Below, in pieces: positions 13,801-33,295 of a stretch of 33,295 nt of DNA. Source of the stretch: Rozella allomycis CSF55 (taxonomy: Eukaryota); NCBI GenBank assembly GCA_000442015.1, contig KE560919.1:1-33295 (forward strand), in the 5' to 3' direction. Below the pieces are notes generated by a model. That model was given only the letters and a program-made list of their open reading frames with translations, had not been told where the DNA came from and did not search any database. The position numbers and the translations under genes were made by a program. Position 1 is the first letter of the stretch; the number at the start of each line of letters is the position of its first letter.

Positions 13801-14045
13801 AGCATAGGCACCAAATGCTTCTCTATCACATTAAATTTTCCAAGCGTTTCAAACGAAAAATACTCGCGAGAATAATAGTCCTGCTTTAATAATCTCTTCA
13901 TGTCCTTCAAACAGTCCAAACTATTCTCGCCTGGAACAAACACTCCATTGTCTAAAACACCGATGCCAAGCGACAAGTTTAGCAACAGCGAGTGGATGAA
14001 CGGTTTAAGGCGTTCCTGCTTTTCCTCCTTTTCATTTTCATCCAT
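10897..14045 (-). CDS. TOF1: Timeless/Tof1/Swi1 replication-fork protection protein (7 introns of 26-31 nt)
   Basis: N-terminal FVPGENSLDCLKDMKRLLK, LGKFNVIEKHLVPML, LVEICVPLTW, LVLSLIRNLMVI and RHTRF match the Timeless N-terminal domain. ORF fragments join in frame through GT-AG mini-introns. Acidic/basic low-complexity C-terminus. Confidence 0.85.
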
Positions 14046-14224
14046 TTGCGAAATTTCAATGTTTAGGGTAAAGAAATGGCAAATCACCGTAAAATATGCA
14101 GTTAAAAATTCAACGAGATTTATTTCAATTCAATTATATCTCATTAATGATATCATAACGCCATTCCTATTGACACGNACGCCATTCCGATTGACACGAA
14201 AGTTTCTGATCAGTAAATTTCCGA

Positions 14225-15178
14225 ATGAAGTTCCAATCCATTTCATCTCTATTTCTTCTCTTTCTATTCCATCTTTCCCCTTCTTTTTGCTCTTACGGTG
14301 ACAACCAAGAAAGTTTTCGCAGATGCACCCAGTCTTGCCTAAACACTCTATGTCCAGAAAATGAACAATCAAAATCACATCTCAGTTTCTCTCTCAGATT
14401 GCTGCAATGGACATGTCTGGATGACTGCAAGTACCGATGCATGATCAATCAAACTGAAAACGACCTCAAACAAAATAACAGAATACACCAGTATTTTGGG
14501 AAATGGCCGTTTTATCGCATCTTTGGAATGCAGGAATTTGCATCCGTTCTATTCTCTATTGGAAATCTAATCGTGCATTACAGAGGATTCATCATTCTTC
14601 GTTCGTCAATGTCGAATCGTTACTACATGAAACCTTTCTATTTAGTAAACTCTCTTCTTAACATGAACTGCTGGGTTTGGTCAACCATCTTTCATGCTCG
14701 AGATACACCAAGAACTGAACGAATGGACTATTTTTCGGCTGTGTTGATTATAGTATATGGCGTATACTACATGCTACTCAGAATGCTTCAAGCAGATACT
14801 CGCAAAAAGCAGCTATTGTTTGGAATACCATGCTTTGTATATTACATTTTTCATATTTTGTACTGCACGAGAAATCCTAGATTTGACTACTCTTACAATG
14901 TCATCTCTGGCACTATATTCGCAGTTACATTCCAGCTTACATATTTTATTTGGGGATTGCGAAACTTGGACAAACCTTATGCTAAATTGGCAATAGCATT
15001 TACATTTTTGGGAACTTTGGTCATGGGCTTTGAAATATTTGATTTTCCGCCTTATAATTTACTAATTGACGCTCATTCGCTATGGCATCTTTCAACGATT
15101 CCTCTTGTGTCGCTTTGGTATCGATTTTTATTGCAAGATGGAAGATATGAGGCTTTAAGGAGAAAGCAGCTGTTATAA
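14225..15178 (+). CDS. PER1: Per1/PGAP3 GPI lipid-remodelling protein
   Basis: Signal peptide, SYGD, WTCLDDCKYRCM, QYFGKWPFYRIFGMQEFASVLFS, WSTIFHARD, DFPP..LIDAHSLWH; intronless. Confidence 0.95.
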   Translation: MKFQSISSLFLLFLFHLSPSFCSYGDNQESFRRCTQSCLNTLCPENEQSKSHLSFSLRLLQWTCLDDCKYRCMINQTENDLKQNNRIHQYFGKWPFYRIFGMQEFASVLFSIGNLIVHYRGFIILRSSMSNRYYMKPFYLVNSLLNMNCWVWSTIFHARDTPRTERMDYFSAVLIIVYGVYYMLLRMLQADTRKKQLLFGIPCFVYYIFHILYCTRNPRFDYSYNVISGTIFAVTFQLTYFIWGLRNLDKPYAKLAIAFTFLGTLVMGFEIFDFPPYNLLIDAHSLWHLSTIPLVSLWYRFLLQDGRYEALRRKQLL

Positions 15179-15198
15179 CGCAACAAAAATAAATTTAT

Positions 15199-16256
15199 TT
15201 ATTGGCATGAATGAAATAAAATGTCTCCATTGTGAGAGACTGAAACTGTCTTTGATCCCTGCTCATTAAACGCGACTCCCCAAACTTGATTCGTGTGGTC
15301 TTCAATAACATGAAGGCATTGGCGGTTGACTAGATCCCAAACTCTTATTTTCCTGTCACTCGAAGCTGAGGCTAAATAATTTAAGGTTGGATTCACATCT
15401 ATACTAAACACTGATCCAGTATGTCCACTTAACATCGCCAAGGTATTTCCATGCACCCTTCCTTCCAATTAACGTGATTAAACTTACGCGTCATAAAAGT
15501 GAATCTTTTTGTTATCGCCTGAGGAAATGATTGTCTTTGAATCATTTGTGAATTTCACACATCTCACTGTAGATCCATGACCTCGTTTGTAATATTTATT
15601 TTACTTACCTGAAAATGAATTTAACAATTTTCCGGAAGCGACATCGATCACAAATACATGTCCTGTTTCAGACCCTACACCCAAATACATTCCATTTGGA
15701 CTCTTTATCAAATCAATCAAACCTATTTACAAATTTCATCGCGGTGATAAACTTTCCTTTAGTTTCAATAACAGCTTCTGAATTTTGAAGCTCATTTGAC
15801 CAAAATGTTATTTTGCCTTGATAATTGCCAGTTGCAACAAGTTGTCCATTTGGAGAAATTGCAGCACACCATGCTTCGACTGGCCCAAGTTCGGCAGTCT
15901 TGATAGGGAGCAAATTCTGAGTATCCCATAATTTCAATTGGTGATCCAAAGATGTAGATACAGCCACTAAGCTGAAATCCTTTCAAACACATTTACAAGT
16001 AGAACTGATTGCACAATCAAGACTTGATGTTCCCAGATTGTGTCCCTGTAAAGCACTAAGCATCTCATAATTCTCACCATTCCTATGTTAAAGTTTCTCT
16101 TATTTTACCAGCACATTATTTGGCCATCAACAGATCCAGTCAAAATTCTATTTGATTTGTAATTCCAGCAGCAGTTCCATATCGAGTCTTTGTGTGCGTT
16201 TTTTATCGTATGCAAAGAAGCAAACTAGAGACAGATTTACGGCTCAAAATTACCAT
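15199..16256 (-). CDS. SKI8: WD40 protein Ski8/WDR61/Rec14 (6 introns; first coding exon is ATG alone)
   Basis: Spliced start M-FASLHTIKNAHKDSIWNCCW, LTGSVDG, GHNLG, STSLD, ELGPVEAW, GKF, LSGHTGSVFSI, SASSDRKIRVWD, HTNQVWGVAF match WDR61. Confidence 0.88.
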
Positions 16257-16332
16257 AATTCTATGGGCTTGTAATACAGAAATTTACGAATTGCAGCTAT
16301 GGTAAAGTCATATAGCATAAATTAAAAAGAAC

Positions 16333-16796
16333 ATGTTTACTGACTTTTCCTTGGCTCCAAATAGAAATGAAACTAAAGTAGAGATAAATGGGCCATACGG
16401 TGTACATGACACTCTTCGCCAAGGCTTTAAATCGGTCAGAAAAGAGTTTACAGCTGGTCATCCACTTGAGCCCGTGCTATCATCTGTAAGAATATTTTTA
16501 ATTACTAGATTAGAAATTGGAGACTGAAAACAAGATCAAATTATCGATGATGAGGAATAACTATGGACTTCACATGCCATTAAGACATATAATGGAACAA
16601 AAGATTGTTGGAATGCCAAAAAGGTTACCAGTTTTAAAGTCTAGTTCAATTGCAATGGATACTCTTTTAGGAAAGGATGAAACAATTGACGTTGAAGACT
16701 TTATGGGAGGTAAGATTATTGGGGTCTTTTATACAAGATGTTGAATTTCAACTTGCGTCCCACAATGTTCATGAAGTTATGGATTCAATGTTTTAA
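16333..16796 (+). CDS. UMP1: Proteasome maturation factor Ump1/POMP (2 introns)
   Basis: GVHDTLRQG, HPLE, RNNYGLHMPLR..ME, DTLLGKDETIDVEDF, terminal VHEVMDSMF. Confidence 0.93.
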
Positions 16797-16830
16797 ATAA
16801 AAATACAATGTGATTTTAAAAATATTGATT

Positions 16831-18903
16831 TTAACATTTATTGTTTGCATGATCGATGAATGCATAAAGGACAGAGTGTTCACTAGAAAAATGCCCTTCT
16901 GGATTAATTTTCAGGTATAGCTTTTTCTTCCATCCTTTTGGGAGATGGTGTCTTAATTTGGCAACCATTTTAGATGGTTCATAATAACCAACTCTTGAAT
17001 CTTTTAAGCCGGCTGTAAAAATAACGTTTGGAAAGTGTGAAGAAGGCAATTTATTATACGGAGAAAATCTTAAAAATTCATTGAAAATATCTTGATTATG
17101 TGGATTACCCCATTCTTCATATTCATAGATCGTCCAGGGCGTATTAATATCAATCATGTCACCTACTACATCAAGAAAAGGAACCTGAAGGATTGCAGTA
17201 TTAAATAAGTGAGGATATTGAAATAGCATTGCGCCGATAACCAAACCCCCTGCACTACGCCCTTGAATTACAATTTGTTCAGGCAAAGCCCAATTATTTG
17301 TTGAAAAATATTTCAAGACTGTCGCAAAATCATGAAAAGAGTTTTGTTTGTTTAAAAATTTACCATCCAAGTACCAATTATAGCCAAGGTCAGCGTCACC
17401 TCGAACATGAGCTATTATTATTGTGAAACCTTTATCAAGCAAGGGATACCAATTAATTTTGAATGAAGTTTCAATCATTCCACCATAAGCACCGTAAGCA
17501 TAAGCTAATAATGGTTTCCTGTACGGCTGGGATTTTCCTTTGTAAATAATAGAGACTGGTATTGAATTAATGAAAATCTTTTTTGATGAATAATCTTTAA
17601 AATTTATTAAAGAATTCGTTTCTTCTTCAACCAGTTCAAGACTTTGTTTAACAAAATGAATTCTAAAGATTTTGGATGGTTCATTAAATGAAGAATAAAT
17701 GAATGAAAAATAGTTATCATTAAAATTTCTATAAACTCTTTCTTCTTCGTCTTCAATTGCGTAAGGCATTAATGAATAAGGAAAAACTTTTGGTTTAAAA
17801 GGCATTACAACTTTAAATTCATCATTAGATTCATTTGGAAGCAAAAAGAGAAAATTCTTGGAACCTTTTTCCCAAAACCAAATCACAATCGCTTTATTGA
17901 AACTTTCAATTCTGGTCAAATATTTATTCGAGTGTTTTAATATGACTTTTGCTTTTTGTTTGTGAAAATCTTCAATTCCATTTAAAAGCAAAAGTTCGTT
18001 ATTTGGATGTTTTTCATCACCATAAAGTATTAAAAATTTATTGTTCCAATGTTCAACGTTAAAGCGAACATTTCTCTCCCTTTGACGAAATCTGAGTAGC
18101 CGGTCATTCCCATCTAAAATAATCACCTCTTTTGTTATTTGCCCAACAATTTCAATTGTTAGATACTTTCTATCATTTGTAGAACCAACTGCAACTGTCA
18201 AACTTTCATCTTCTTCATAATACAATAGTTCTTTTCTTTGCATTTCAACATCAATTTTAAAAATCTTTCGCGGTAAGCCCTTTTCATCCACAGAAGATGC
18301 AATAAGAAAATTATTTGCATCCCATCGTGCACTGTAATAAAATGATATTTCAGCGTCAATCAATTTGTAATTCTTAGAAATCATATCCACTACGCACAGA
18401 CGAAACCTCTCACTTCCATCCTCATCATAAGCAAATGCTAAATATCTTGAATCTAGGCTTATTTCAAAAAAGCCTACATTAAAGTATGACATATATTTTG
18501 AAAACAATGATAAATTAAATATCTCCTCAATGATATCCTCTTTCCTTCTATAAAACGCATTTTCGCCAGAAGAATTATGATTCTCGTAATATGTCCATCC
18601 ATCAATAACAACAGTTCTATGAATATAGACATGATGATCCTTTAACTTTGACAATTCAGCACGATAACTTTCAATTATGGATTCGCACGGTTTAATAAAC
18701 TTATCTTTTGTATAATTAGATTCTTCCGTTATGTACTTCATAGTTCTGCTATCGTTAAATTTCAACCATTCATAGTAATCAACAATTTTGTGTCCTTCAA
18801 ACAAAATCTCCGTTCTTATTCTCTCAGCTTTAGGCATTGATATGGTATAACAACTTTCCAGTAGGTAAAATATTAGAATAATTTGCACTAGCATTGCGAA
18901 CAT
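16831..18903 (-). CDS. Oligopeptidase B (peptidase S9A, PtrB-like) with apparent N-terminal signal peptide; intronless (ORF open to 18981)
   Basis: DYYEWL, DEDGSERF, YAYGAYG, AHVRG, GRSAGG nucleophile, VPFLDV, EYEEWGNP, DSRV and GH catalytic motifs. Hydrophobic MFAMLVQIILIFYLLESCYT start. Confidence 0.92.
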   Translation of the reverse strand: MFAMLVQIILIFYLLESCYTISMPKAERIRTEILFEGHKIVDYYEWLKFNDSRTMKYITEESNYTKDKFIKPCESIIESYRAELSKLKDHHVYIHRTVVIDGWTYYENHNSSGENAFYRRKEDIIEEIFNLSLFSKYMSYFNVGFFEISLDSRYLAFAYDEDGSERFRLCVVDMISKNYKLIDAEISFYYSARWDANNFLIASSVDEKGLPRKIFKIDVEMQRKELLYYEEDESLTVAVGSTNDRKYLTIEIVGQITKEVIILDGNDRLLRFRQRERNVRFNVEHWNNKFLILYGDEKHPNNELLLLNGIEDFHKQKAKVILKHSNKYLTRIESFNKAIVIWFWEKGSKNFLFLLPNESNDEFKVVMPFKPKVFPYSLMPYAIEDEEERVYRNFNDNYFSFIYSSFNEPSKIFRIHFVKQSLELVEEETNSLINFKDYSSKKIFINSIPVSIIYKGKSQPYRKPLLAYAYGAYGGMIETSFKINWYPLLDKGFTIIIAHVRGDADLGYNWYLDGKFLNKQNSFHDFATVLKYFSTNNWALPEQIVIQGRSAGGLVIGAMLFQYPHLFNTAILQVPFLDVVGDMIDINTPWTIYEYEEWGNPHNQDIFNEFLRFSPYNKLPSSHFPNVIFTAGLKDSRVGYYEPSKMVAKLRHHLPKGWKKKLYLKINPEGHFSSEHSVLYAFIDHANNKC

Positions 18904-19249
18904 AAAGATAATTTTCCTTTTTTGTAAATGCATGAAAAAAATTCCGTGCACATGAAAAGGAAAAATTATTTCATAATTCAATGATTCAATGACATGGAAA
19001 TCTATTTTCTATTCACTTCACAAATAACATAACTAGTCATGCTAAATGGAATAAATAATGAAATTGGAAATGAACAATTCTTTACGAAATGTGGCGGCCT
19101 TGATTTCCTTGCATGCAACCACATCATTTCAGTTTACTAATTACGTTATTGTTTTAACAATAAGGTATATTTTTGAGTCATCTGAGCACATACATTTACG
19201 TTATGCCTGATGTGCGTATTTCTAAATCTAGATTAGATTTCAATATTTC

Positions 19250-20555
19250 ATGTTACGAAACTTTGATAGATTTTGCCTTGCTCTGCATGGAATTTTATCC
19301 ATTCTTATCATTTTAAAGGTTTCATACACCGAAATAGATTATTCCACTTATCTGCAACAAGCCAAACTCTTCTGGGAAGGTGAACGAAACTATTCCAAAA
19401 TCCTTGGTGATTCAGGACCTTGTGTATATCCTGCTGTACATTTATATATCTTTTCTGTTATATACTTCATAGGTTCTTTCCTGGAAGAACAATACAGATT
19501 GTTATTCGGGCAATTGCTATGGATGATTATTTCAATTGCAACAGTCAAAATAGTTTTTTCTATTTACAATTCTTTATACAAGTAGAGTATGTCAATTCCA
19601 TTTATAAGGAATACGTCAAAGTTAGACGCCGCGCTTAAACTAATGCTGATATTGTCTAAGAGAACTCATTCTATTTACGTATTGCGAATGTTTAATGATC
19701 CTATAGCAATGATTTTCTTTTGGCAAAGCGTCCAAGCACTATTGGAAAATAATTTAATTGTGTCTGCTTTATCTTTAAGGTATCTGGTACTTTTTAAAGA
19801 GAAAGCCTTGCCTTAGGTGTTAAGATGAATATTCTTTTATCTTTTCCGGGAATATTCGTAGCATTATATGTTACAAAAGGGTTTAGAAAAACATTTTTTT
19901 ACTTTACAATCGTTGGAGCTTTTCAGTTACTAGTCGCGATCCCATTTCTTGCAACATTTCCTTTGGAATACTCTTCAAATGCTTTTAATTTCAAACGAAA
20001 GTAATTTTTGTATGAATTCTTGAGAGATTTCTTTACGAATGGACTGTTAACTGGAAATTCCTTCCAGAAAATGTGTTTCTCAGCCCTTCCTTCTCAATGT
20101 TACTTCTGATTTTACATTTATTAGTTTTGATCATTTTTATTTCTCTATTCTTATTGTAAGACCATTTCCTTGTGTGAATAGTAAAAAGAAAGGTGTGCAT
20201 CCATGGAAATTGATGAGATTGAGTGCTGTAGGACTATCCAAGAAAGACACACTTGATTTGATTTTAGTCTCAACTTTCATAGGTATTTTATTTTCTAGAA
20301 CACTGCATTATCAATTTTATTCTTGGTATTTTACAATGTTACCGTTCCTTCTACGAGACTATTACCTGTAAGAAACTTTACTGAAATCAAATTAGCTGGT
20401 GTTTATACCCAATTATTGAATGGGTATGGAATGTTTATCCCACTTCAGAAATATCTTCTTTTGTCTTGTTATGCTCACATTTAATGATCGTGGTAGTTCA
20501 ATTTATGAAGGTATTGAGAAATCACTACCCAAAGAAAAACAATAAATTGCATTGA
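19250..20555 (+). CDS. ALG3: Dol-P-Man:Man5GlcNAc2-PP-Dol alpha-1,3-mannosyltransferase (5 introns)
   Basis: KVSYTEIDY, GDSGPCVYPA, SKRTHSIYVLRMFND, SLALGVKMN, FLYEWTVNWKF, FSRTLHYQFYSWY, EWVWNVYP. Confidence 0.95.
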
Positions 20556-20610
20556 ATTTTTTTTGAAAAGGCATTAAAATCCATCAAAGAATTTAATGAT
20601 CAAGGACTAT

Positions 20611-20889
20611 TCATTTATTTTTGTCATCGTCGATAGCGTCTAGAAAGTCATCAGAAATATAGTCCAGATCAAATAGCACTTCTGGAGTTTGGCCATCAGG
20701 AAATGCGACACGGAAATCTTCTTCGGATGCGTGAACTCCAGGAAATGATTGTACTATATCAGCCTCCACTGCTTGACCTGGCACTTCGCTAGTTGTTTTC
20801 AAGTCAGCATTGTTGGTATCAGCAGGATCAGCATATGCAATATTTTGAAGAATAATTAAGCATATAATCGTTTTGTAGAGTAAATGCAT
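20611..20889 (-). CDS. Small acidic secreted protein of unknown function (92 aa)
   Basis: Intact ORF filling the gap between genes. Signal peptide ending AYA|DP; Asp/Glu-rich mature part; no recognisable family. Confidence 0.65.
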   Translation of the reverse strand: MHLLYKTIICLIILQNIAYADPADTNNADLKTTSEVPGQAVEADIVQSFPGVHASEEDFRVAFPDGQTPEVLFDLDYISDDFLDAIDDDKNK

Positions 20890-21042
20890 TGATTAAGGAG
20901 TTTAGGATTCGGAGTATTTTATCGACCGCCAATAACATTTGTTTTACTTAAGAGATGACAATGCAGTGGAATTTCACTTCTCGGGAACATATTTTCCAAG
21001 TCTAAATTCATAATTGAAATACAAAATACAATTTTATTGACG

Positions 21043-21937
21043 CTAAATTTGAATCATTTCCGGTACGGGCCAAACAACGTCTATGAGTAAGGCAAGAATA
21101 TTTTACCGCCGTCAAATTGAATGGGATCATCAGAATTCATGAAATTCATGTATTCCTGAATACTTAATAGATTTGAAGTTTGAACAAAAGCCTTTACAGT
21201 TTCCTTTTTCGGCACAAGAGTGCTGTATCTCCCCATCAAGTCATCCAATGCTGGCTTTAAATCTGCTTTAATTAAATTTGAGAGCTGTGATCCTAGATTT
21301 ACCGATGAATTTGTAATGGCTGTAACCTATTCGGAAATAGAGTCATGGAATACATGTTGAGGTATATTATCAAATGTTAGTTCTGATATATCAGACGATA
21401 GTGCGGAACTTTCTTCGGATTCTGCTTGAAGACTCCTGATAGCCCAGAAAGAAAAAGATGGCTTTCCAATCTAAATTGTTTCATAAAATAGATAATACAT
21501 CCTCTAAAAAGGTCAAAACTTTAGTATCCGTAAATAGTGTATGATCAGGCCTATTTAAATCATTTAAGACTTTTTGTATAGGTTTATAAGTAGCCTCTTG
21601 AAGATTCAATGATCATTTACTTCAATTAAATGGAAGTATATCTCTTTGTACAATAATAAGATGCCAGTTATTGAGTCCTCATTCTCTGTGTGTTGTGGGG
21701 GAAATAGTTTTTCATAGTAATTGTTATAATCATCTTTTGACTCATTTTGTGTCCTTAATGCACCAACAACAATTAACCTATAATAAAATGGCTGCTTAAA
21801 TATATTGATTAAACTGGAGTTACTCGTGAATTCACTTCTTTTCTTGTAATGTCGAGGTAATTAGTAGGTTCGATATCTTCATTTTGATGGTTATCATCGT
21901 CAATTATATCATCATTGTGATTGGATGTGGCCAGCAT
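21043..21937 (-). CDS. TEX47: TEX47/DYBLUP/MOT7-like BLUF-related ciliary protein; five introns (21795-21823, 21595-21620, 21471-21498 and two more downstream)
   Basis: Spliced: ...TNYLDITRKEVNSRQPFYYRLIVVGAL...YYEKLF...SITGILLLYKEIYFHLIEATYKPIQKVLNDL...TKVLTFLEDIGKPSFSFWAIRSL...LLSIQEYMNF...DGDVVWPVPEMIQI. ITG(I/L)LL.Y....H.IE and terminal VWP.P are characteristic of TEX47 as recalled. Confidence 0.78.
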
Positions 21938-22075
21938 GGATAAAAAAAAAAAAAATAGTCCTATTCGCGAGATACCGACTATGATGGGCAGCGTCACTTC
22001 TTTTATCGTGCACATATGCTCCAATAATTAATGCAGTATGATAGAACGCTGAATAAAATATGACAAGCCACTAAC

Positions 22076-22722
22076 ATGTCCAAAAGGACAAGAGCAGAAT
22101 GCTATAGAAACACCTTGAACGGTCTAGACGCTGTAATTTAACCTATATTTATATAAAAGTATACTAGACATAAAAAGTTTATCAACGACTACATTATGTA
22201 CTACAAAAAGGGAGAAACTGAGACGAAACGAAAAGGACGAAGTGAGACATCGATTATAAAAGAGCACTACAGGTATACTTTGCAGAATAATTTTATTTTC
22301 GATTTATACCAGATGCAGATGATTTAGACGAGAGCGTTTGGGAGAAAAGGCTGGCGAAAAAGTATTATGATCAGTTGTACAAGGAATATTGTTTGGCAAA
22401 TTTGTCTTTATACAAGGAAGGAAAGATTGCATTGAGGTGGAGAACTGAAGAAGAAGTGTTTCAAGGAAAAGGTCAGTTTGAGTGTGGCAATTTAGAGTGT
22501 GATGAAGTTGAGGGGTTAACGAGTTGGGAAGTTAATTTTGCGTATGTGGAAGCAAAAGTTAAGAAAAATGCACTTGTGAAATTAAGACTTTGTGATATAT
22601 GTTCGCGAAAACTAAATTACAAAAAGGAAATGAAGAGGGCCTCAATAAATAAGGACGCGCGTTATCATGATCATGATAATCATGATGAAGATGATGATGT
22701 TATAAATAAACTACTTGAATAA
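22076..22722 (+). CDS. FRA10AC1: FRA10AC1 spliceosome-associated protein; intron 22133-22159 and a second intron starting at 22273
   Basis: LDAYTRHKKFINDY, WEKRLAKKYYDQLYKEYCLANLS.YK, ALRWRTEEEV..GKGQFECGN, WEVNFAYVE..KKNALVKLRLC..CS.KLNY. Confidence 0.94.
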
Positions 22723-22837
22723 TACTTTTTAAAGTTTATGATTCGCCATGCGTTCTAATGCGTTTATATGAAAGGTACAAGCTATTAAAACCTCATTATT
22801 GACAATCTAAAATCCAAGTCATAATCATGGAAAGAAT

Positions 22838-25800
22838 TTATTGTTTTGAATACATTTTGTAAGAATCCAAAAGATCATCATTAAAAGATTTTGCTTCAGT
22901 GGATCTCGATATTATTTTATCCAAATCCAAAGCCTTTAAGTTTATAAATGTTTCAAACGATTCCAGCATTTTCAACGTTGAAACGTACAAAGAAATAACC
23001 AGGGTACAATATTCGGCGGCAATAATGCAACATTCAAACATGTTGTTCTTATCACAAACCTTTAATTCTGCTCTCTTATTCAATATATCGTAAACTATTT
23101 TGAAAATTGCTGGTAGACATGACTTTATCATTGTTGAAATCTCTTCAATATTTTGACCCTGGTTTATCAATTTTCTTCTAATGTTACCTGTAGTTCTGTT
23201 AACTTTGAATCACTTAATGTTTCAATGGTAGGTTTTGCGGTACCATCAAAGAGAATATGTAAATTACGAACTATTTTAGTTTCCAGAGTAGTTTTACCTA
23301 TCCTTAGGATTCTCTTTTGATCATTTTCATTTTGGCAATTCTCGTTTATAGATTTAAGAGAATTTATTATATCTTTAAAGAACAATAACAAGATTTTATA
23401 TGAAACGGACAGAATTAAGAGAGAGTTGGAATCATAGAAATCTTTTGAAGAATTAATGAACAGTTCAATGTCCATTTTGATATTTTCTTCTTCAATTGGA
23501 AAGTTTGCAATGTTTTCAAAATCTCCATTTCTCGATTCTTGCATCGAAGGTTCGAGAAATTCAATTAATAGTCCTTTAATCAATTCTTTGTCTTTTAAAT
23601 CATTTAAAAATTCAGAAACAACATTTTCAGGCAACCCCAATGAAATTTGATTGTCTTCTAGAGAGATAATAATGTTGTCGATGGGGATTTTACATAAAAC
23701 AGCTATTTCTTCCTTTAAAACATCTAAAGATTCTAAATTTTTATTATATTTAAAATTTGTAAAAGTTATATTGGATGATTCCAACAACTCGGGTTCATCT
23801 AGTGGCTTGGGTTGATCTAAGAAGTTTGTTTGAATTTCTGGTGATGCGATAGATTGCGTATACTGTAAAGTTTGATTATCATTTGCTTCTGTCAATTCTT
23901 TAGAGATTGAAATTTTAGAAATCTCATCGTTAGGAATTGCATCACTAGAAATCTCTTGTTTCGATATTGAATCTTTAGATAATGATTCTTTAATTTTCCT
24001 GAATGATTCATCGTAATAATCAAAGCTAGATTGCCTATTTTTCCTTCGTTTAATAAAAGTTGATCTTTTTAGTTTTTCTTCTAAACGTTTTTCATAAGCA
24101 AACGCGTCATCATCATTTTCATCACCAGAGCTTGATTCATCTAAGACAGGGACAGAGTAAAGATCTGTAGTTTCATTTAAAGATTCAGAAGGAAGTAGAT
24201 CATCTTCAGGACGTGTAATTTCGTCAAAGAAAGAATCGACTTGGTTTATCAATAAGAATAATTGTTCAGCGTCACTTGGTCTTGGGGTTATTGTAGAATG
24301 AGATTTTATTAACATTTCCATTTCCAATCTCGCATTTTCAAAATCTTCTTGAAAATCATTTTGAAAATCATCGTCAAGATCAACTTTGTCTATTTCTGAA
24401 TTTTCAAATTCTAATGCAACTTTGAATAGTTCAACTAGATGTTTATTGTTTTGCATGCAAGTATCAAATATCCAATTAATAAAACTTTTGGGAAATCCTT
24501 TCAACTTTCCAAAGGAAATCATTCTCTCTTTAATAAATGCTATTTAGTAAATTTCCTATATTTTACCCTGGTATTCTTTAGAGAAATTGTTTAGAAGAAT
24601 AAAGAGAGATTCTTTAATTGATGCCAAAGAGTCATCATAGTTGTATAATGAAAAGAAAGTTTTCTGAAAATCATTTATAGAAGCAAATCTTTTTAACGGT
24701 GAATTAAATGGATTACCTGGTTGAATGTAAATGTAAGAAAAACATTCCCAACTTGTTGAGATTTAATTTAGTGCATAAAGAATTTAAATTTAATCCTAAT
24801 GATGCAATGTCATTTTTGAGGGAAGGATTATCGCTTTTAATGTAATGAATAAAGAAGGGTAAAGATAACCAAATGATTGAATTTAACCCGCTGTTTGTAA
24901 GAGTGTTGATTGAATTGGTTAATAGAATGAGAAAAGATAGAGAATATTTGCTCTGATGAAGAATTGAGATTAAATCTAATAAAGTATTTTCAATTTGATT
25001 TTCAATTTGATTTTTAGTATGACTTTCATTTTGATTTTGAATTTTAATTGGTGAAGATTTGTTTAAAAGATTTTCAATTAAACGAAAAGTTTCAAATTTT
25101 TCATTTTCAGATCCATTAGCCTTTAAGATCAAAACGAGACCGTGGAATAAAAGAGAAAAATTTTCAAAATCATTTTCATTTAAAAAAGGAATGAAGAATT
25201 CAATAATTTGTAAAATTTGAATGACAAACGTAGAAATTTCAGAATGTTTATCACCAATGATGTTTGATAGACGATTGAATAATTCACAAAAAGGAAAAGA
25301 ATTATTTGAAAAGAGTTGATAAGAATTTAAAGAATGAAATATTTGAAGAGATCTGTAAGCTAAATGGCGTATTGGACAAGTTGTTATCCATTTAATACAC
25401 AATTTAGACCATTGAAGAATAAAAGAATTATTAAAATAATTTAATAAATATTTAATCAAAGAATTTAGTTTTGAAAAACTTTCCAGGGTTAAAAAAGAAT
25501 CTTTTGGATCTTCAAAATCCCAAATTAGATCTCTTAAATGTATTGAATTATTTAAATTATTTAAATCTTTCTCAATCTCAATCTTAATCTCAATCACATT
25601 CTCAGGCTTAATCTTATTCCCATCTTGAAAGTGAAAAATAATCTTTTGAATAATTTGCTGTGAATGAAAAACTAAAATTTGATTAAAATGATCTAAATGA
25701 ATCACACACGCCAATAAAATAACATCAAGGTGAGATTCAATTGAGTTGAAATTAAATGAAATTAATTCAGAAAGAAAAATTAAAGCCAATTGGCCAACAC

Positions 25801-28800
25801 TAAAATTTGGATTCTTTTCAATCTTTGGAATAAATGAATCCAAATTTGCCAAATAAATTTCATTATTTAAATTAGTTTGATAATTATTCAGCTTTGAATT
25901 ACTTGAGTGTAGTTGACTGTTTAAACTATGCTTTGAACCGTCTACTCGCATTGAACTACTTGGTTCTACTATTTGCTTTGAACTGCTTAATTCAATATTA
26001 CCTTCATGTCTTAATTCAATAGTTCCTTCATGTCGTAAGTCAATTGTACCTTCATGTCTTAAGTCAGTGGTACCTTCATGTCTATTACTCTCTTCAACTT
26101 GCTTTTGCTTTTTAACTTTTGGAATCATTGACTTTGGATTAATTTGATCAACAAGAAATTTAATTGAATCAGAATCATGAATTATTAAAACAATTTGATT
26201 AGCCAATGAAATTAAATCTGAATTTTTAGTTTCAATTCCAAGATTTATTAAAAATGAAAAAATTAATGAAAATTCGTTTTTATAAATTAACCAAATTTCA
26301 TTCAATAGATTAAAATGATTCTTTGAATATTTCAAAGTGAAAAAACAAAGATTTGAAATTATAGATGAACTACATGGGATAAACTTCAAAATAAACTTTA
26401 ATAGAATCAAAAAATTTTCTTCTTCTTTTGTTTCAATCAATTCACAAACTTTTACAAGTTCATTAAAAATAGAAATAGGGTCTAAGCCATCCAATAGATC
26501 TAGATTTGATAAAATTTTATTTAAATTATTTGAATAAACAATTGGAAGATTACTAGAAATCAACCAATAAAATTTTTCAACATTTAAAAGTTTTCTTAAA
26601 ATCTCAAAACAAGAAATTCTAATTTTAGAATCTGAATTGGAAATTTTCAAAAGTGAAAGAACGAAAAGAGAAGATTTTATTTCCTTCAATTCAAACAGAG
26701 AAGATTTTATTTCCTTTGAAGATTTTGCTTCACTCTCACATGATTTATCCTCTTTCAAATTAAAATGATTAGATGAATACAGAATTGAAATACTCTTTAA
26801 ATACCCTGGATTTGAATTGAATGCTTTTATTAAGAAATCATTCAACAATATATTATTGTTTATTAAAATAGATTGAATAGTTTGAATCCCCAATTCATTA
26901 ATTCTTTCTTCTGCATTGTTCAAAAGACTTTCAATCCAATTCATTACCCCTGCAATATTGAATGAATCTTTTCCAATTCCCTTTTCATCAATCAATTGCA
27001 ACGGCCCATTAATCAAACTAACCATTGCTAAAATTGCATTATCTTCCAATGCTTTTCTTTGTTCTTCCATCTTATTAGTCAATATTCCTTGTTAAGTCAA
27101 ACTATTCAAATTACCTCTTTCAACGATATCTTTTACTTGCTCTAAAATCATTGACATCATTTTCACTTCCTTTTCTCTTGTTGAATCTCTAAACTCTCCA
27201 TAGCCACTCCATTCTTTAAACAAATTAAATAATTCAATTCTAATCTTGAAATTAAAATGATTTGGGCATTTATTATAAAAGTTTGATATAAATTGACAAT
27301 ATATTTGTCTTAATCCAACAAAATCCCAATTTCCTTCAATTTCTTCACAACTCAAATATTCTTTAAACAAAACCATTGCATTCAAATATCTATTCAACAC
27401 CAATGGCTTCAAAGTGAATGGTTTTAAACGTAAAGTTTTTGCATGGTCATCTTTCATATTATTACTCTCTCCTTTACCTTTCATTGCTCTAAATTCCCCT
27501 GTCGACATTAGTGTTAAAATTTGTTGCATTTTTATTACATTTCCTTTAATGTTTTTTCTTCTAACGTCATCCAATATTGAATCAATCAAAGTCGCAATTT
27601 CTTCAAAAACAATTTCGTAAATTTCAGAAACACTAAAAGATTGGCAAATCATCATTCTAATAGCACTTTTATCATGAAATAGAAACGAATTTATTATTCT
27701 GATACAATTTCTAATCATTTTCTCTTCAAAATTTAGTTTTGATAATATAGTGAAATAGTAAATCATTTGAACAATCATTTCATCATTTTCTCCACTGGTT
27801 GAAGTAGAAGAAGAAGAAGTTGATTTCATTGAACTGAAAATACCACTTTTTAAAGTCGCTTCATTATTTAATGAAATATTTTCATAACAATTTTGAAATC
27901 TTTTATAGATAATCAGCACCATTTCTTTATCAAAATACTTTAAATCTTTGATCAAATTTATTAAATTTGAAAAATGTTTCAAATAATCTTGTTTCAATTC
28001 AGTTGACAGATGATGAAATTTATCATTAGCTTTATTTTTAGGTATTGATAAATTTTGATTAAAGAAATCAATCAAAGCAAAGGAAGTATCTATTTTTGAA
28101 TCACTTTTAACTTTTGAATCATTTACTTTTAGTTCTCTAATTTCGTTANAATCATTTACTTTTATTTCGCTAATTTCATTATCTTTATCAATACTAAATT
28201 TGAGACTTTTGGATTTCTTTAATAGATCTATAGCTACATTTCTGACTCCAACATTCATTGAAGTTAGGAAAATTAATGCCATTCTTTCAAGAGAAAATTC
28301 ATCATCAACAATTTCATTAAACATTTGAATTATTTTTATTATTTTTTGTGGGTTTTTATCACTCACAGTTTGAAGATAATTATTAATCACATGAATCAAA
28401 TTATTTCCTTTAACTCTTTCTTTAATCCTTTTAAACATTTCAATTACAACTCTTGATTGTTGATTATTCAATTGACCAACAAATTTACATCCAATTTGCA
28501 TCAAAATAAAATCATTCTTAGTTGGATAAATAAATGGAATCAAATTGAACATTGAATTCCACATTAATATCTCATTTTCACTCTCACTCAATTTCTCAAT
28601 CAATGGCAACAAATTTCCTAAATATTCATCAATTCTACTTAAATCCAAATTATGAAATTTCAAATCTTCTCTTTCCAATTCTGTTTCCAATTTACTTTCC
28701 ATTCTCTTTTCTTCTTCAAACTCTCTTCTACTTTCAATTTTACTACTTTCATTTCTTTTATATCCACAGGGACTCTTGATCACATCCCTTCTCGGAAATA

Positions 28801-30435
28801 TACTCTTGTTTCCTTTAACAATCCCTTCAACAATTCCTCTCAATGACTCCATCGCTACTATAATTCTTTCAACGCCTACATTATTAACATTCTCCACATT
28901 CAACAAATTATTCACTAAATGCGTCATACAAAATTCTGGAACTCTTCTTCCAATTATTTCAACGAAAATACTCAAATATTTCAAATTAACATCAAGTGGA
29001 TTCAAATGTCTTTTTCCTGGAGGCACTTTTTGCTTTATTATGCTCTCAACCTTTACGAGATTTGGGATCTCTCTCACTCTATTCAAATAAACCCACACAA
29101 TTTGAATTATCATCAACATTGCTTCATCTTTCATTGTTTTATCCTTGTTAATCATTCATTCTTCATTTACTTTCAATTTTGACACACAAATATCAATCAC
29201 TCCAATCCATTCGCCTTCAAAGTATTCTCTTCTAGTACTACACAGCAAAAGAACATAACACGGAAATATCATCTAATTCCACTTAAAACATCTCTTTACA
29301 TAATACTTCACTTTGGGCAAAATACTTTGAATACATCCAAGCACTCCTTCAATGCTCTTTGACCATCCTGGAAAATTGAACTCTGATTCAGCCGTTTCTA
29401 TTATTGGAATCAACAAAAAACTCAAAAATTGTATCAAATGTTGCTTGGTCTTTATGTTTTGACACCTTTTTATATTCTCACAGATGGATAGCACAAACCA
29501 CGTAGCTTCCTCAAATGCTTCAGGTGGATAGCTCTTTATAACTATTTTCACATTTGTATACTTTAAGCCTAAAATATTTCAATCCATACGCTAAATAATC
29601 ATATTTCGGATCCTTTAAGTCTTCAGACTTTTCAAATTCTGCAATAAATCGATCTGATACTGCTGTCAATCTTTCAATCATTGTTCTTAAACATTACCTA
29701 GTACTGGTCATTGCTCCAAGCAACTCTCCAAAAAGATCAAAGTTAAGAGTTCTAAAGGGCGAGTTAAACAGAGACTCACTATCATTACTTCTTTAATCAA
29801 TTACGGCTCACTATAAAGAATCTGTGAAAATGCCATGTCCTCCAGTTTGTTTCTGGTATTCACTGAAATCAATATCCCTTTTTCAAATATATCCATCAAC
29901 ACACGCACTAATACAAAATTAAGCATCACCTACTTAAATTTATCTCTTTAAATTACAGACTTTCTGTCTCTCAACATTTCATGAGCTTGCACATTCTTTG
30001 TCAAATTGTCATTCCTGTATCCAAAAAGATATTCGTCTTACATTAATCTTCGATTAATCACATTTTCCAAAACATCACTTTTATGTTTTCTCCATGACAT
30101 TAAACATTCAACCACAAGCTCTGGTGACACCTCTGAAAAACTGGAAACAATGTCAATAATGTCAGATGATGTCCCACCAAGTTTGAATTGATCACGAAGA
30201 GTTTCAATTGGCATTTCCTACTATTTAAAAAAGTCATTTATTTTACTATTGGTCCCATAATTAGCCTTTCTAATATTGGATCAATGGAGACCTTAAATTT
30301 AGTCATCATCTGATCAAAATACACAGCATACATTGACATAGAATTGATATTATTATTAACTTGGATTTTATCCTTCTTTGTACTAACTTTGGTCGTTCGT
30401 TCATCAATCGTGTCAGGTATTACAAATTGAGGCAT
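22838..30435 (-). CDS. TAO3: Tao3/Pag1/Mor2/Furry cell-morphogenesis scaffold (RAM/MOR network), about 12 mini-introns; exact 3' end uncertain
   Basis: Spliced N-terminus with LMSWRK, RDRKS-VMLNFVLVRVL, GELLGAM, AVSDRF, GLKYFRLKSYPPEAFE, and later LFKEWSGY, IHLDH, WSKLCIKWITTCPIRHLAYRSLQIFHSL. The ORF blocks 22838-30435 join in frame via 26-29 nt GT-AG introns. Confidence 0.88.
25986..26083 (-). repeat. 24-nt coding tandem repeat (x4) encoding RHEG(T/N)(T/I)(D/E)L within TAO3
   Basis: RHEGTTDLRHEGTIDLRHEGTIELRHEGNIEL; ccttcatgtc recurs every 24 nt. Confidence 0.9.
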
Positions 30436-33295
30436 AGCTGTAATGTGGCTAAGCCAATGAAATGAAATCTGCGGTACTCCAAGCTGAGTTGCCCCTATAA
30501 ATAGTATCAACGTGACATTATTTTTCAGCTTCTCCGTTAAAACAAAGCCATATATTTAGTCTCAGTATTAATAAGAAACAATGACAGTCATAGATACCTT
30601 AACAAAAGTTCACCAGTGACCTTGTCTTTAACAGTACAGAACCCTTCATTAAACAATACACAATTCATTTGAAAAAAATTGATTTATGATTGACTTATGG
30701 AACATAGAGACCATTAGATAAGAGAAAGCTTCACTGTGCCATCGCGAAATAGCACCTCGAGTGTGACAGACCCTGAACCTGGAGTTTCAGTTTTGATTAG
30801 CATGCTCTTGTCAATAAAGTTATTTATATTGTGGCTCATATGATGAGTTCATCATGTGTCAAATAGCAAAGTGTTACCCGATAATAATGCATGGTTAGCT
30901 TCTAAATTTACAACGTGGTCTACGGTTGCTGTTGTGTGTTGTAATAGTAAATTGTTGGCGGTTACATGAAGGCAGCTTAAGAAGAATATGATGGAGTTTA
31001 ATGGTGCTTCAACATTGTGAACAATTTTCGATTCAGGTTAGCAATGTTTGCCGCGTGTATTTGCGGGTTATCGAAATGTATACGAGGTGGTCGGGCACCT
31101 CGTGGTTTTCTTGTTAAAGGGGAATGTGGACAGTTCTGGAAAGTGTGACCAGCAGTGCGACAATTGCTGCAAAACAGATATTGAGGTTTTCCAAAGTGGA
31201 CGAAGACCGCAGATATGTGATGCGTGCTTTGTCAGGGGTCAGATATAACAGCAGCCTGGTGGCAATGCGGGAAAAAGATTATAATCTTTGTCTAAAAGTA
31301 ATAGAATGGATGGATGGATAGATAAAATAATAATATGAAAGTGAATCAGAGAGATGAGATAGAAACCGATTAGAAGCTGACTGACCTTATAAAAGGACTT
31401 TTGGTGAAAGTATATGAAGCTTTAAACTAGTTAACAGAATGTGATCCGGCGATAGCCGGAACTTGCCAGGATTTATGTAATGTTTTCGTGCTTTTATAAG
31501 GATCAGTTTNTGTAATGTTTGCGTGCTTTTATAAGGATCAGTTTCTATGGTAACAGGAGCGATTTCCTCTGTACGCTTCCATAATGTTCCTTACGTAATG
31601 AGTATCGCAGATTAAACACAATTAAATATATTTCATGTTAACAGAAAGCATTGCGTGATAGATGTCGTGACCTTTAGAGCAGTCTCCTTCCAGGGCGTCA
31701 TTGTTAAGTAATTGAAGGTGTTCATTTAAGGCTGATTGTGTTGATGGTTGATTTTGAAGAAGTGACACACCTGGGTTTTGGTATTGGTCTTAGGGGCTAG
31801 TAGAGGCTTTCTGAATAATTGAGGCATCATGAACTCTGTAACAACCGCGTCTTTGAAACGTCAATAACAGCGCTATACGTTTCTAGAGAAGACCATGTAA
31901 AGTTTCATGTTCTTTAAAAGTTGATTGCGTCCAAGTTGAATGTTGGCGTCATACCAATAGCTGAAAATGCCGTTTGTTTCTACCTTGAACACTGGTATTG
32001 TCGATTGGGCCGTTTATTTATCCACTCATACTGTTGGGACTTGATGGATGACTACACAAAGAACTTTTGAATGATGCTAAATCAGCTGATCTTAGTGAAT
32101 TAGATTTGAACTATGGCATCGTTGTGGACGTCAAGAGTATTCACTTTTGCATTTGAGAGTTTTGACAAACTCCTATTCTAAGAAGAAATAATATCATATA
32201 CAAATTGCGCCTGTTTGCAACAACTAGCGGACTAAAACTTCCTCATAAAATATAAATATCAATATAATAATATGCCTGGAAAGCTTAAAATCTAAATTTT
32301 TGACTCGCTTTATATTGAATACCATGTCAGGGGGTGTTCAGACACTCCGGGAGTGTAAAGATTTAGCAAGCAGCCTCTGGACCTCACAAGGTTCGAATTC
32401 ACAAAAGATTTTGCTTTGCGTGCGCTCATTCATCAAACAATGCAAAGCGTTACGTGCATCGCCAACTCTGGACATTGATCACCTTACAGCCATGATTTCG
32501 CTCAGTCAACCACATTCATGTCATTCGGGAACCGGAAGCCGACTCGTTGAATGTAGTAAAGATGAAAATCCATAAAATCAATATCATAAACGATCGTAGT
32601 TTCCGGGAAGGCCAAAAACATGAACATTAGCATCGAAGCCCCATGAAAAATTGTTGTCAAGGTTTTATGATTGGACTCCAAATGCAGGTGCCACAGATTA
32701 TCTTACCTTCAACACAGAAGACGTCAATACTTACGAACGTTTACCGACATCTATCACAGTCGCCAATGGTCAGTTTGCATTGTGAAAATCTGTTTTGATA
32801 ATGAAATATCCACGGTTATGTTCAATGAAATGTCCCGAATGCTAATCTTTGCCTCATTTCTATTAGTCGTCTTTGCATCAATCAACTATCAGTCCTTTTC
32901 TTTAATAATTGTTGCTATGTAATTAAGCCGAATACGCCTGTTGTGCCAAAAAAGCATGATTGAACTTTGTACATGTCAGAAGTTAACTTTTGTTATAACG
33001 GCGCTTTTAGAATTCGAACACGATTTTTCAACCCTATGACCGCTTCTACCTACCACTATTCGTGTTTTTGAATGGTAGTCGTTACAACGGCGAAGCTCCC
33101 ATAACATCAAGTCTCTAAAAGGAAACAGCGTAATCATATTAATACAATTTCTGTGAGCATATAACTAGCGTCTGCTACATCGAAAGTGTCGCTCCATGCG
33201 CTTATAGTATCTTAGTCCTCATAAATTGGATAGTAAATCGTAAAATAAAAGAGTTAAACTGAAGTCGATTGAGAATGGATTATCCTCCGTTCTAT

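What the first reader, a model, noticed from the sequence alone, without database searches (positions are those of the whole stretch)
22273..22301. Candidate non-canonical GT-CG intron in the splicing-factor gene FRA10AC1
Seen: after CAC TAC AG the donor GTATAC begins at 22273 and unspliced read-through hits a stop. The AGs at 22285, 22312, 22318, 22327 and 22332 are all out of frame. Excising the 29 nt GTATACTTTGCAGAATAATTTTATTTTCG, which ends in CG after a T-rich tract, gives IKEHYRFIPDADDLDESVWEKRLAKKYY. This matches the conserved FRA10AC1 pattern (E.H.F.....WEKRLAKKYY) and the local 26-31 nt intron size. The first in-frame AG (22334) needs a 62-nt intron that skips several AGs and deletes the conserved Phe. 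Established: FRA10AC1 associates with catalytic-stage spliceosomes. Inference: this spliceosome may accept non-AG 3' sites, and a weak acceptor in this gene could act as an autoregulatory sensor.
Basis: partly seen in the sequence, partly recalled or inferred. Interest (0 to 1): 0.85.

Follow-up and report, generated by a model that had tools for sequence, protein, structure and literature searches.

The report
Conserved tiny intron ending in CG
The splicing-factor gene FRA10AC1 of the fungal parasite Rozella must lose a 29-base intron that ends in CG instead of the near-universal AG in this assembly, but I could not check whether cells really splice there or this is one faulty gene copy.

Summary
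The window is a Rozella allomycis contig. FRA10AC1 runs from 22076 to 22722 on the + strand.

Of 1951 in-frame junction models scored against a profile of 198 homologues, removing 29 nt is best (266.6 bits). Only the 22273-22301 version starts with GT, and it ends in CG. The public protein model uses a canonical 71-nt intron (22242-22312). That model deletes 15 conserved residues and scores 32 bits lower.

An environmental homologue has a GT-AG intron at the same codon and phase. At least 21 other local tiny introns (26-31 nt) all end in AG.

So the intron and its borders are well supported, and the public model is probably wrong.

Whether CG is really used is open. No RNA data were found, and my only read-laying run did not show position 22300. 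Rozella is reported triploid and heterozygous, and the window differs from DNA runs at about 0.9% of sites. One crippled allele is therefore my leading reading (0.5). Genuine GT-CG splicing gets 0.25. That reading is intriguing because loss of FRA10 in Chlamydomonas lets a mutated 3' splice site A(-2) be used.

The parts
22076..22132 (+). FRA10AC1 exon 1 (ATG to GCT, 19 codons)
   Evidence: Translation MSKRTRAECYRNTLNGLDA equals the start of the public protein P0122.
22133..22159 (+). Intron 1, 27 nt, GTAATT...AAAAG, canonical
   Evidence: Needed to join exon 1 to YTRHKKF. Also used by the public model. GC 0.15.
22160..22272 (+). Exon 2, ending ...SETSIIKEHY + AG of the Arg codon
   Evidence: The last 31 nt (22242-22272) are treated as intron by the public model. 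They are open in frame and match the family consensus D-[VI]-[IL]-[RK]-E-[NH]-H-[RK].
22273..22301 (+). The finding: 29-nt intron 2, starts GTATAC and ends TTTTCG (phase 2)
   Evidence: Best of 1951 junction models at 266.6 bits. It is the only one of the equal-scoring 29-nt shifts that starts with GT. GC 0.24, T 0.48. Same site and phase as the GT-AG intron of L058.
22300..22300 (+). The C at position -2 of the 3' splice site (A expected)
   Evidence: Read in the window. Not verified in independent reads (table cut).
22302..22722 (+). Exon 3 (A of the Arg codon, then FIPDADD...KLLE, stop TAA at 22720-22722)
   Evidence: Pfam PF09725 Fra10Ac1, E 1.4e-45, 154.6 bits, profile positions 12-118 of 118.
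22242..22312 (+). Rival: 71-nt GT-AG intron of the public gene model
   Evidence: Joining 22241 to 22313 reproduces P0122 letter for letter. Scores 234.1 bits and deletes SETSIIKEHYRFIPD.
22273..22312 (+). Predicted unproductive splice: 40-nt GT-AG to the next AG after the CG
   Evidence: Out of frame, with the first stop after residue 59. A prediction only; no RNA seen.

Best explanation
Positions 22273-22301 are an ordinary, evolutionarily old, tiny U2-type intron of FRA10AC1 that the public annotation missed. It lies in phase 2, inside the Arg/Lys codon before the invariant Phe. In the copy assembled here its acceptor reads CG instead of AG.

The most likely reason is an A-to-C change in one allele of a triploid, heterozygous genome, or less likely an assembly error. 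This copy would then splice poorly or to the next AG at 22312, giving a frameshift. Working FRA10AC1 would come from the other allele(s), which would carry AG.

Shown: the intron's place and borders, the error in the public model, and that all other local tiny introns end in AG. Inferred: that the C is allele-specific and harmful.
For: Intron and borders:
- The 29-nt removal scores 266.6 bits, against 235.2 (62-nt GT-AG) and 234.1 (public 71-nt), among 1951 models.
- It restores a Phe present in 189 of 198 homologues.
- L058 has a GT-AG intron at the identical site and phase. L057 has one a single nt away. The L059 family best fits a GC-AG intron at the same site.
- In a control on other organisms' FRA10AC1 loci, the best canonical junction was within 3.4 bits of the best junction of any kind in 18 of 23 distinct junctions. 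Here the gap to the best GT-AG is 31.4 bits.

Ordinary class:
- Of 22 ORF-bridging GTA-donor candidates, 18 are 26-31 nt.
- Three more (27, 29 and 29 nt) were read by eye.
- All end in AG.

Allele reading:
- R. allomycis CSF55 is reported triploid with high heterozygosity (passages of PMC6784888).
- The window differs from the contigs of DNA runs X1, X5 and X4 at 188, 180 and 175 places in 20 kb. One X4 contig across the gene carries 75 other letters in 6.5 kb.
- A per-site difference of about 0.9% is far above the 0.0206% share of GT-CG introns (19 introns) in a hand-curated fungal annotation (Table 1 of PMC11590231).
Against: - No A allele was seen in any call. The allele reading rests on base rates, not on observation.
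- This copy carries no other lesion. All three exons are open and all 30 invariant columns of a 28-sequence alignment are intact.
- Independent DNA runs hold 0.82-0.92 of the sampled words of 21900-22900, so most of this stretch is shared with them. That cannot speak to one base.
- A heterozygous null is only expected to be tolerated; this is not shown.
Confidence: 0.5

Rival explanations
1. Genuine GT-CG splicing. The C is present in all copies and the spliceosome joins 22272 to 22302 to make the full 196-aa protein. In these tiny introns the 3' site may be set largely by distance, so a non-AG at the right distance can be used. The weak site may make the gene sense its own product.
For: - The copy is otherwise intact and conserved.
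- 29 nt sits in the middle of the tight 26-31 nt class.
- Several local tiny introns skip earlier AGs, for example 23187-23159, 12274-12244, 1334-1359 and 24566-24540. Position matters, not only the dinucleotide.
- GT-CG introns are real elsewhere. FlyBase lists 8, all with RNA-seq junction support (Table 3 passage of PMC4528330). Ganoderma has 19.
- In Chlamydomonas, loss of FRA10 raises wild-type splicing at a 3' site mutated at A(-2) (abstract and section 4.2 of PMC5881031). That is the same position that is C here.
Against: - GT-CG is about 2 in 10,000 introns where curated.
- All 21 other tiny introns I read in the window end in AG.
- The donor GTAT is also the minor form; 16 of 18 are GTAA.
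- There is no RNA evidence of any kind.
- Triploid heterozygosity offers a simpler source.
Confidence: 0.25
2. The public model is what the cell makes. The 71-nt GT-AG intron 22242-22312 (or the 62-nt 22273-22334) is spliced, and Rozella FRA10AC1 simply lacks the EHYRF segment.
For: - Both are canonical and in frame.
- The 71-nt version is the deposited model and is reproduced exactly from the window.
Against: - It scores 31-32 bits below the 29-nt model and loses a Phe kept in 189 of 198 homologues.
- The 'intronic' 31 nt are open in frame and match the family motif, which drifting intron sequence would not.
- 62-71 nt is outside the 26-31 nt class.
- The paper on this single-cell assembly says co-assemblies were annotated with the JGI pipeline. 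Its main text has 0 occurrences of 'transcriptom' or 'RNA-seq', so the model is probably not RNA-based.
Confidence: 0.1
3. Fixed decay. The A-to-C change is in all copies, the site is not used, and FRA10AC1 is being lost in Rozella.
For: [quoted passage not shown]
- The same section states that FRA10AC1 is absent from Ascomycota and Ustilaginomycotina, so loss happens.
Against: No second lesion anywhere in the gene. The change would have to be very recent.
Confidence: 0.07
4. Not an intron. The frame change is made some other way: ribosomal -1 frameshift, an AT-AC intron (22287-22309), or a TA-bounded 29-nt excision (22276-22304).
For: The AT-AC model scores 257.1 bits and the TA..TA model 263.6 bits. 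A TATAC repeat flanks the region.
Against: - The AT-AC candidate starts ATAATT, not the U12 consensus (consensus recalled), and loses the Phe.
- The TA..TA version puts Tyr where 189 of 198 homologues have Phe.
- I found no X XXY YYZ slippery site by eye between 22291 and 22324.
- A frameshift would insert about 9 residues that homologues lack.
- L058 has a plain intron at the same site.
Confidence: 0.03

Closest known systems
Documented GT-CG introns (Drosophila FlyBase 'rule-benders'; Ganoderma lingzhi curated annotation)
   Same: U2-type donor GT with CG in place of AG, and one base away from the canonical pair. All 8 FlyBase cases have a similar alternative splice. Here an AG lies 11 nt further on.
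   Different: Those cases have RNA junction support (8 of 8 in FlyBase). This one has none. The nearby AG here is out of frame. The genomic base itself is unverified.
Chlamydomonas fla9 (IFT81 3' splice site A(-2) mutation) suppressed by loss of FRA10 or DGR14
   Same: The same position of the 3' splice site is altered, and the same protein family is the factor whose absence lets such a site be used (abstract and section 4.2 of PMC5881031).
   Different: There the mutation is in an unrelated gene and is a laboratory allele. Here the altered site is in the FRA10AC1 gene itself. No experiment exists for Rozella.
Tiny-intron systems (about 30-nt introns already noted in Rozella S23; ciliates near 25 nt)
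   Same: Very short introns of narrow length. A passage of PMC6349667 notes two putative ~30-nt introns in R. allomycis S23. The abstract listing of PMC5014332 gives ~25 bp for Paramecium and Nyctotherus.
   Different: The 21 other tiny introns read in this window all end in AG. A CG end is the exception, not a property of the class.
Allele-specific splice-site loss in heterozygous polyploid genomes
   Same: A single-base change at a splice site in one assembled haplotype of a genome reported triploid and heterozygous, with about 0.9% differences between the window and DNA runs.
   Different: The other allele was not seen here, so this stays an inference.

Membership tests
FRA10AC1 protein family (Pfam PF09725) | Match to the family profile above the curated cut-off | tested here: met
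   Exon 3 translation: E 1.4e-45, 154.6 bits against cut-off 27, profile 12-118 of 118.
FRA10AC1 protein family (Pfam PF09725) | N-terminal part of the domain (D-[VI]-[IL]-[RK]-E-[NH]-H-[RK]-F) joined without a gap to WEKRLAKKYY | tested here: met
   Met only by the 29-nt junction model (266.6 bits, ungapped against my profile). The public model lacks it.
Canonical U2-type GT-AG intron | GT at the 5' end | tested here: met
   GTATAC at 22273. GTAT donors are 2 of 18 local tiny introns; GTAA are 16 of 18.
Canonical U2-type GT-AG intron | AG at the 3' end | tested here: not met
   CG at 22300-22301 in the window. The base was not checked in independent reads.
Canonical U2-type GT-AG intron | Length and composition of the organism's intron class | tested here: met
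   29 nt against a local 26-31 nt class. GC 0.24 against 0.35 in the exons.
Canonical U2-type GT-AG intron | Orthologous intron at the same site in other species | tested here: met
   L058 has the same codon and phase 2, GT-AG, 127 nt. The L059 family probably has GC-AG at the same site.
Canonical U2-type GT-AG intron | Removal from RNA | not testable with these tools
   No RNA holder was listed. RNA run X11 gave only 24-31-letter pieces with 2-4 mismatches.
Validated GT-CG non-canonical introns | Junction seen in RNA, and genomic CG confirmed in the same strain | tested here: inconclusive
   No RNA.
U12-type AT-AC intron | 5' ATATCC and branch-site consensus (recalled) | tested here: not met
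   The only AT-AC candidates start ATAATT (22287) and score 9.5 bits below the best model.
Autoregulatory unproductive splicing of a splicing-factor gene | An alternative splice that gives a premature stop | tested here: inconclusive
   Splicing to the AG at 22312 would stop after residue 59. This is a prediction from sequence only.
Autoregulatory unproductive splicing of a splicing-factor gene | The choice depends on the level of the gene's own protein | not testable with these tools
   The only analogy is Chlamydomonas fra10. By their listings, the 4 papers holding 'FRA10AC1' and 'autoregulat' are about repeat and fragile-site disease (listing only).

The most novel reading that the evidence does not exclude
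The CG is the true and only 3' splice site of this conserved intron in every Rozella copy. Productive FRA10AC1 mRNA then needs the spliceosome to accept an acceptor with C at -2. That is the kind of site which becomes usable in Chlamydomonas when FRA10 is missing. The gene would therefore measure its own product. With little FRA10AC1 the spliceosome is permissive and the CG is used, giving full-length protein. With plenty of FRA10AC1 the CG is rejected and splicing goes to the AG at 22312 (frameshift, stop after residue 59) or the intron is retained. It would be the first splice-fidelity factor found to be wired to a non-AG site in its own transcript.
Probability: 0.12. Interest if true: 0.8.

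Novelty: new member of a known kind. Interest (0 to 1): 0.4.

Why it matters
If the CG is only one allele or an error, three modest results remain:
- a corrected gene model, with 15 conserved residues restored to Rozella FRA10AC1;
- a clean example of how GT-AG-only gene prediction hides allelic splice-site damage in a polyploid;
- a local description of Rozella's 26-31 nt intron class.

If the CG is fixed and used, a minimal-intron spliceosome tolerates a non-AG acceptor in the gene for a factor implicated in policing that very position. That would make the function of FRA10AC1, still unclear, testable through a natural feedback loop. One read pile-up and one RT-PCR would decide between these.

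Tried and rejected
- **RNA evidence.** No RNA holder was listed for 21900-22900. RNA run X11, laid anyway, gave 19 records, each matching for only 24-31 letters with 2-4 mismatches. These are not this organism's transcripts.
- **C at 22300.** I laid runs X1, X5, X4 and X11 on a 20-kb stretch to catch other splice junctions as well. That was a mistake. Position 22300 is therefore unresolved.
- **Exact-pattern scans.** Scans for the intron's first 27 bases found 0 matches in metagenome contigs and 0 in genome contigs.
- FRA10AC1 has no relative among solved structures.
- **Alternatives rejected on score or motif**:
  - a 13-nt intron to the AG at 22285, which is out of frame and too short;
  - AT-AC 22287-22309 (257.1 bits, no U12 motif);
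  - a TA-bounded 29-nt excision (263.6 bits, Tyr for the invariant Phe);
  - a 31-nt unit between the TATAC repeats (wrong frame);
  - a -1 frameshift (no slippery heptamer seen by eye).
- **Search for other non-AG tiny introns in the window.** A scan of GTA donors at the ends of coding-like frames found no convincing second case. It has low power and many false positives on antisense frames.
- **Literature.** James et al. 2013 (the first Rozella genome) is not in the library. What I say of it is recalled. Supplements were not consulted.

Full report
**What the window is.** One search found a 182-aa protein, P0122. NCBI names it hypothetical protein ROZALSC1DRAFT_27750 [Rozella allomycis CSF55]. 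Its longest recorded contig has 33,295 bases, the length of this window. reproduces P0122 letter for letter from the window by joining 22076-22132, 22160-22241 and 22313-22722. Neighbouring frames encode an SPX/CitMHS transporter, a polysaccharide deacetylase, Per1, a prolyl oligopeptidase and a MOR2/PAG1-like protein, which fits an early-diverging fungus. The best non-self FRA10AC1 relatives are 55-75% identical and come from gut fungi, chytrids, Mortierella-like fungi and animals.

**The observation.** Exon 2 ends CAC TAC AG at 22272 and GTATAC follows. Read-through meets a stop. From this donor the only in-frame AG is the one ending at 22334 (62 nt). Exon 3 translated from 22303 is a strong Fra10Ac1 domain (E 1.4e-45), but it starts at profile position 12 of 118. 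The first 11 profile positions must therefore lie upstream.

**Which junction does the protein family demand?**
- I built a profile from 198 homologues, leaving out the window's own two sequences.
- I scored every in-frame, stop-free way of joining 22200-22330 to a point up to 22345, 1951 models in all, whatever the border dinucleotides.
- The ten best all remove 29 nt (266.5-266.6 bits). They are the same junction slid over ten neighbouring positions, which changes little or nothing in the protein. Only one starts with GT, namely 22273-22301, and it ends in CG.
- The best GT-AG models are the 62-nt one (235.2) and the public 71-nt one (234.1). The best GC-AG is 250.2. A chance AT-AC of 23 nt reaches 257.1.
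- With the 29-nt junction the protein aligns without a gap to the family consensus (...DLDVLRENHRFLW...WEKRLAKKYY). It carries Phe in a column where 189 of 198 homologues have Phe, 8 have a gap and 1 has Met.
- The public model deletes SETSIIKEHYRFIPD. The 62-nt model deletes the Phe and ten more residues.

**Control for the method.** I applied the same scoring to introns of FRA10AC1 in 80 metagenome loci. Of 43 junction rows, 23 are not duplicates.
- In 18 of the 23 the best canonical junction is within 3.4 bits of the best junction of any kind.
- In 4 the gap is 6.0-8.0 bits.
- One gap of 19.2 bits is an in-frame TAA, not an intron.
- The Rozella junction is an outlier: 31.4 bits to the best GT-AG, 16.4 to the best GC-AG and 9.5 to the chance AT-AC.

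**Intron position is conserved.**
- L058 has a 127-nt GT-AG intron written cac ag|GTAAGA...CATCAG|g ttc. It is in phase 2 inside the Arg codon that precedes the invariant Phe, exactly as in Rozella (cac tac ag|GTATAC...TTTTCG|a ttt).
- L057 has a 63-nt GT-AG intron one base further on, in phase 0.
- In the L059 family (L059, L062, L064, L073, near-identical) the best canonical solution is a GC-AG intron at the same phase-2 site: 92.3 bits against 94.9 for the best of any kind. This one is an inference.
- So the Rozella intron is an old one, and its 3' border lies between 22301 and 22302.

**The local intron class.**
- A scan for GT-AG segments bridging two long, coding-like open frames gave 28 groups. 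Of these, 22 have a GTA donor and 18 of the 22 are 26-31 nt long (26x4, 27x4, 28x5, 29x4, 31). The rest are 35, 53, 54 and 57 nt. My choice rule preferred 23-35 nt, and some groups may lie on non-coding strands.
- Three more were read directly: 22133-22159 (27 nt), 6919-6947 (29 nt) and 7027-7055 (29 nt).
- All 21 end in AG. Donors are GTAA in 16 of 18 and GTAT in 2 of 18.
- Several skip earlier AGs inside the intron.
- The candidate fits in length (29 nt) and composition (GC 0.24 against 0.35 in the exons). It has the minor donor form and is the only one without AG.
- A passage of PMC6349667 already notes ~30-nt putative introns in R. allomycis S23.

**Is the C real, and is the CG used?** I could not settle this.
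- No RNA run holds the stretch.
- The one RNA run I laid gave only spurious 24-31-letter matches.
- DNA contigs of X1, X5 and X4 cover the region (depths 267/395, 280/287 and 17/17 in the two bins around it). It says nothing about 22300.
- What one search does show is that the window differs from each run's contigs at 175-188 places in 20 kb. One X4 contig spanning the gene (18584-25110) carries 75 other letters and 54 gap letters. Allelic length differences coincide with the window's four Ns.
- This agrees with the report that R. allomycis CSF55 is triploid with high heterozygosity (passages of PMC6784888).

**Weighing.**
- A validated GT-CG intron is rare: 19 introns (0.0206%) in the hand-curated Ganoderma annotation (Table 1), and 8 in Drosophila, all with RNA-seq support and all with a similar alternative splice (Table 3 passage).
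- A given site differs between this window and another haplotype with a probability near 0.9%. A null allele in a triploid should be tolerated. [quoted passage not shown]
- On base rates alone, a damaged allele is at least ten times likelier than a functional GT-CG site.
- Against that stands the identity of the gene. In Chlamydomonas, loss of FRA10 (and of DGR14) increases wild-type splicing at a 3' site mutated at A(-2) and at a 5' site mutated at G(+1). [quoted passage not shown]
- That the one non-AG tiny intron in this window sits in this gene, at that position, is either coincidence or a feedback device.
- My odds are 0.5 for the allele or error reading, 0.25 for genuine GT-CG use (about half of that with feedback), 0.1 for the public or 62-nt model being what the cell makes, 0.07 for fixed decay and 0.03 for non-intron mechanisms.

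**The public model.** The paper on this single-cell assembly says co-assemblies were annotated with the JGI Annotation Pipeline. Its main text has no occurrence of 'transcriptom' or 'RNA-seq'. The 71-nt intron is thus most likely what a predictor restricted to GT-AG made of this locus. Its supplements were not seen and might say otherwise.

**Literature limits.**
- No held paper has both 'Rozella' and 'non-canonical splice'.
- The 4 papers holding 'FRA10AC1' and 'autoregulat' are, by their listings, about repeat and fragile-site disease (listing only).
- FRA10AC1 is called a peripheral C-complex factor that binds ESS2 (passages of PMC12071946). It appears among LENG1-proximal spliceosomal proteins (legends of PMC13736545).
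- No solved structure contains a relative.

**Verdict.** The public gene model should be corrected. The non-AG end is a property of this assembled copy whose biological meaning is open. One read pile-up at 22300 and one RT-PCR would decide it.

Noticed in passing
window 22242-22312: The public protein model for this gene (P0122, 182 aa) splices out 71 nt. It thereby drops 15 residues of the conserved Fra10Ac1 domain. A 196-aa product fits the family 32 bits better.
   Followed up: yes
window, e.g. 927-953, 1334-1359, 6919-6947, 7027-7055, 7354-7381, 27114-27088, 24716-24689, 24566-24540, 23187-23159, 12274-12244, 11666-11640: There is a tight class of tiny introns of 26-31 nt, mostly GTAA...AG. 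Several contain earlier AGs that are skipped, as if the 3' site were chosen by distance.
   Followed up: partly
window 10623, 14178, 28149, 31510: Four single Ns sit inside or beside short tandem repeats (TRF arrays at 10589-10657, 14158-14199, 28117-28181, 31472-31544). At three of them DNA runs show length variants (21 left out at 14158; skips of 33 at 28145-28179 and 35 at 31470-31506). These look like allelic repeat-number differences collapsed by the assembler.
   Followed up: partly
window 12300-32299: The window differs from the contigs of three DNA runs at 175-188 places in 20 kb. At some places both letters occur in one run. This fits the published triploid, heterozygous state, and the contig looks like a mosaic of haplotypes.
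   Followed up: partly
L059, L062, L064, L073 (about 2353-2440 in L059): In a GC-rich environmental lineage the orthologous FRA10AC1 intron is best modelled as GC-AG. That is a second non-GT-AG border at the same intron site. The model is inferred and not checked with RNA.
   Followed up: partly
L066-L071 and L076 (e.g. L066 388-416): FRA10AC1 of another organism, some contigs from gut metagenomes, has a 29-30 nt GT-AG intron. This is another tiny-intron eukaryote.
   Followed up: no
L078 and L080 (L078 2603-2605): The FRA10AC1 frame is interrupted by an in-frame TAA where homologues have Glu, Gln or Lys. There are more in-frame stops upstream. Stop-codon reassignment (a ciliate-like code) is likely.
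   Followed up: no
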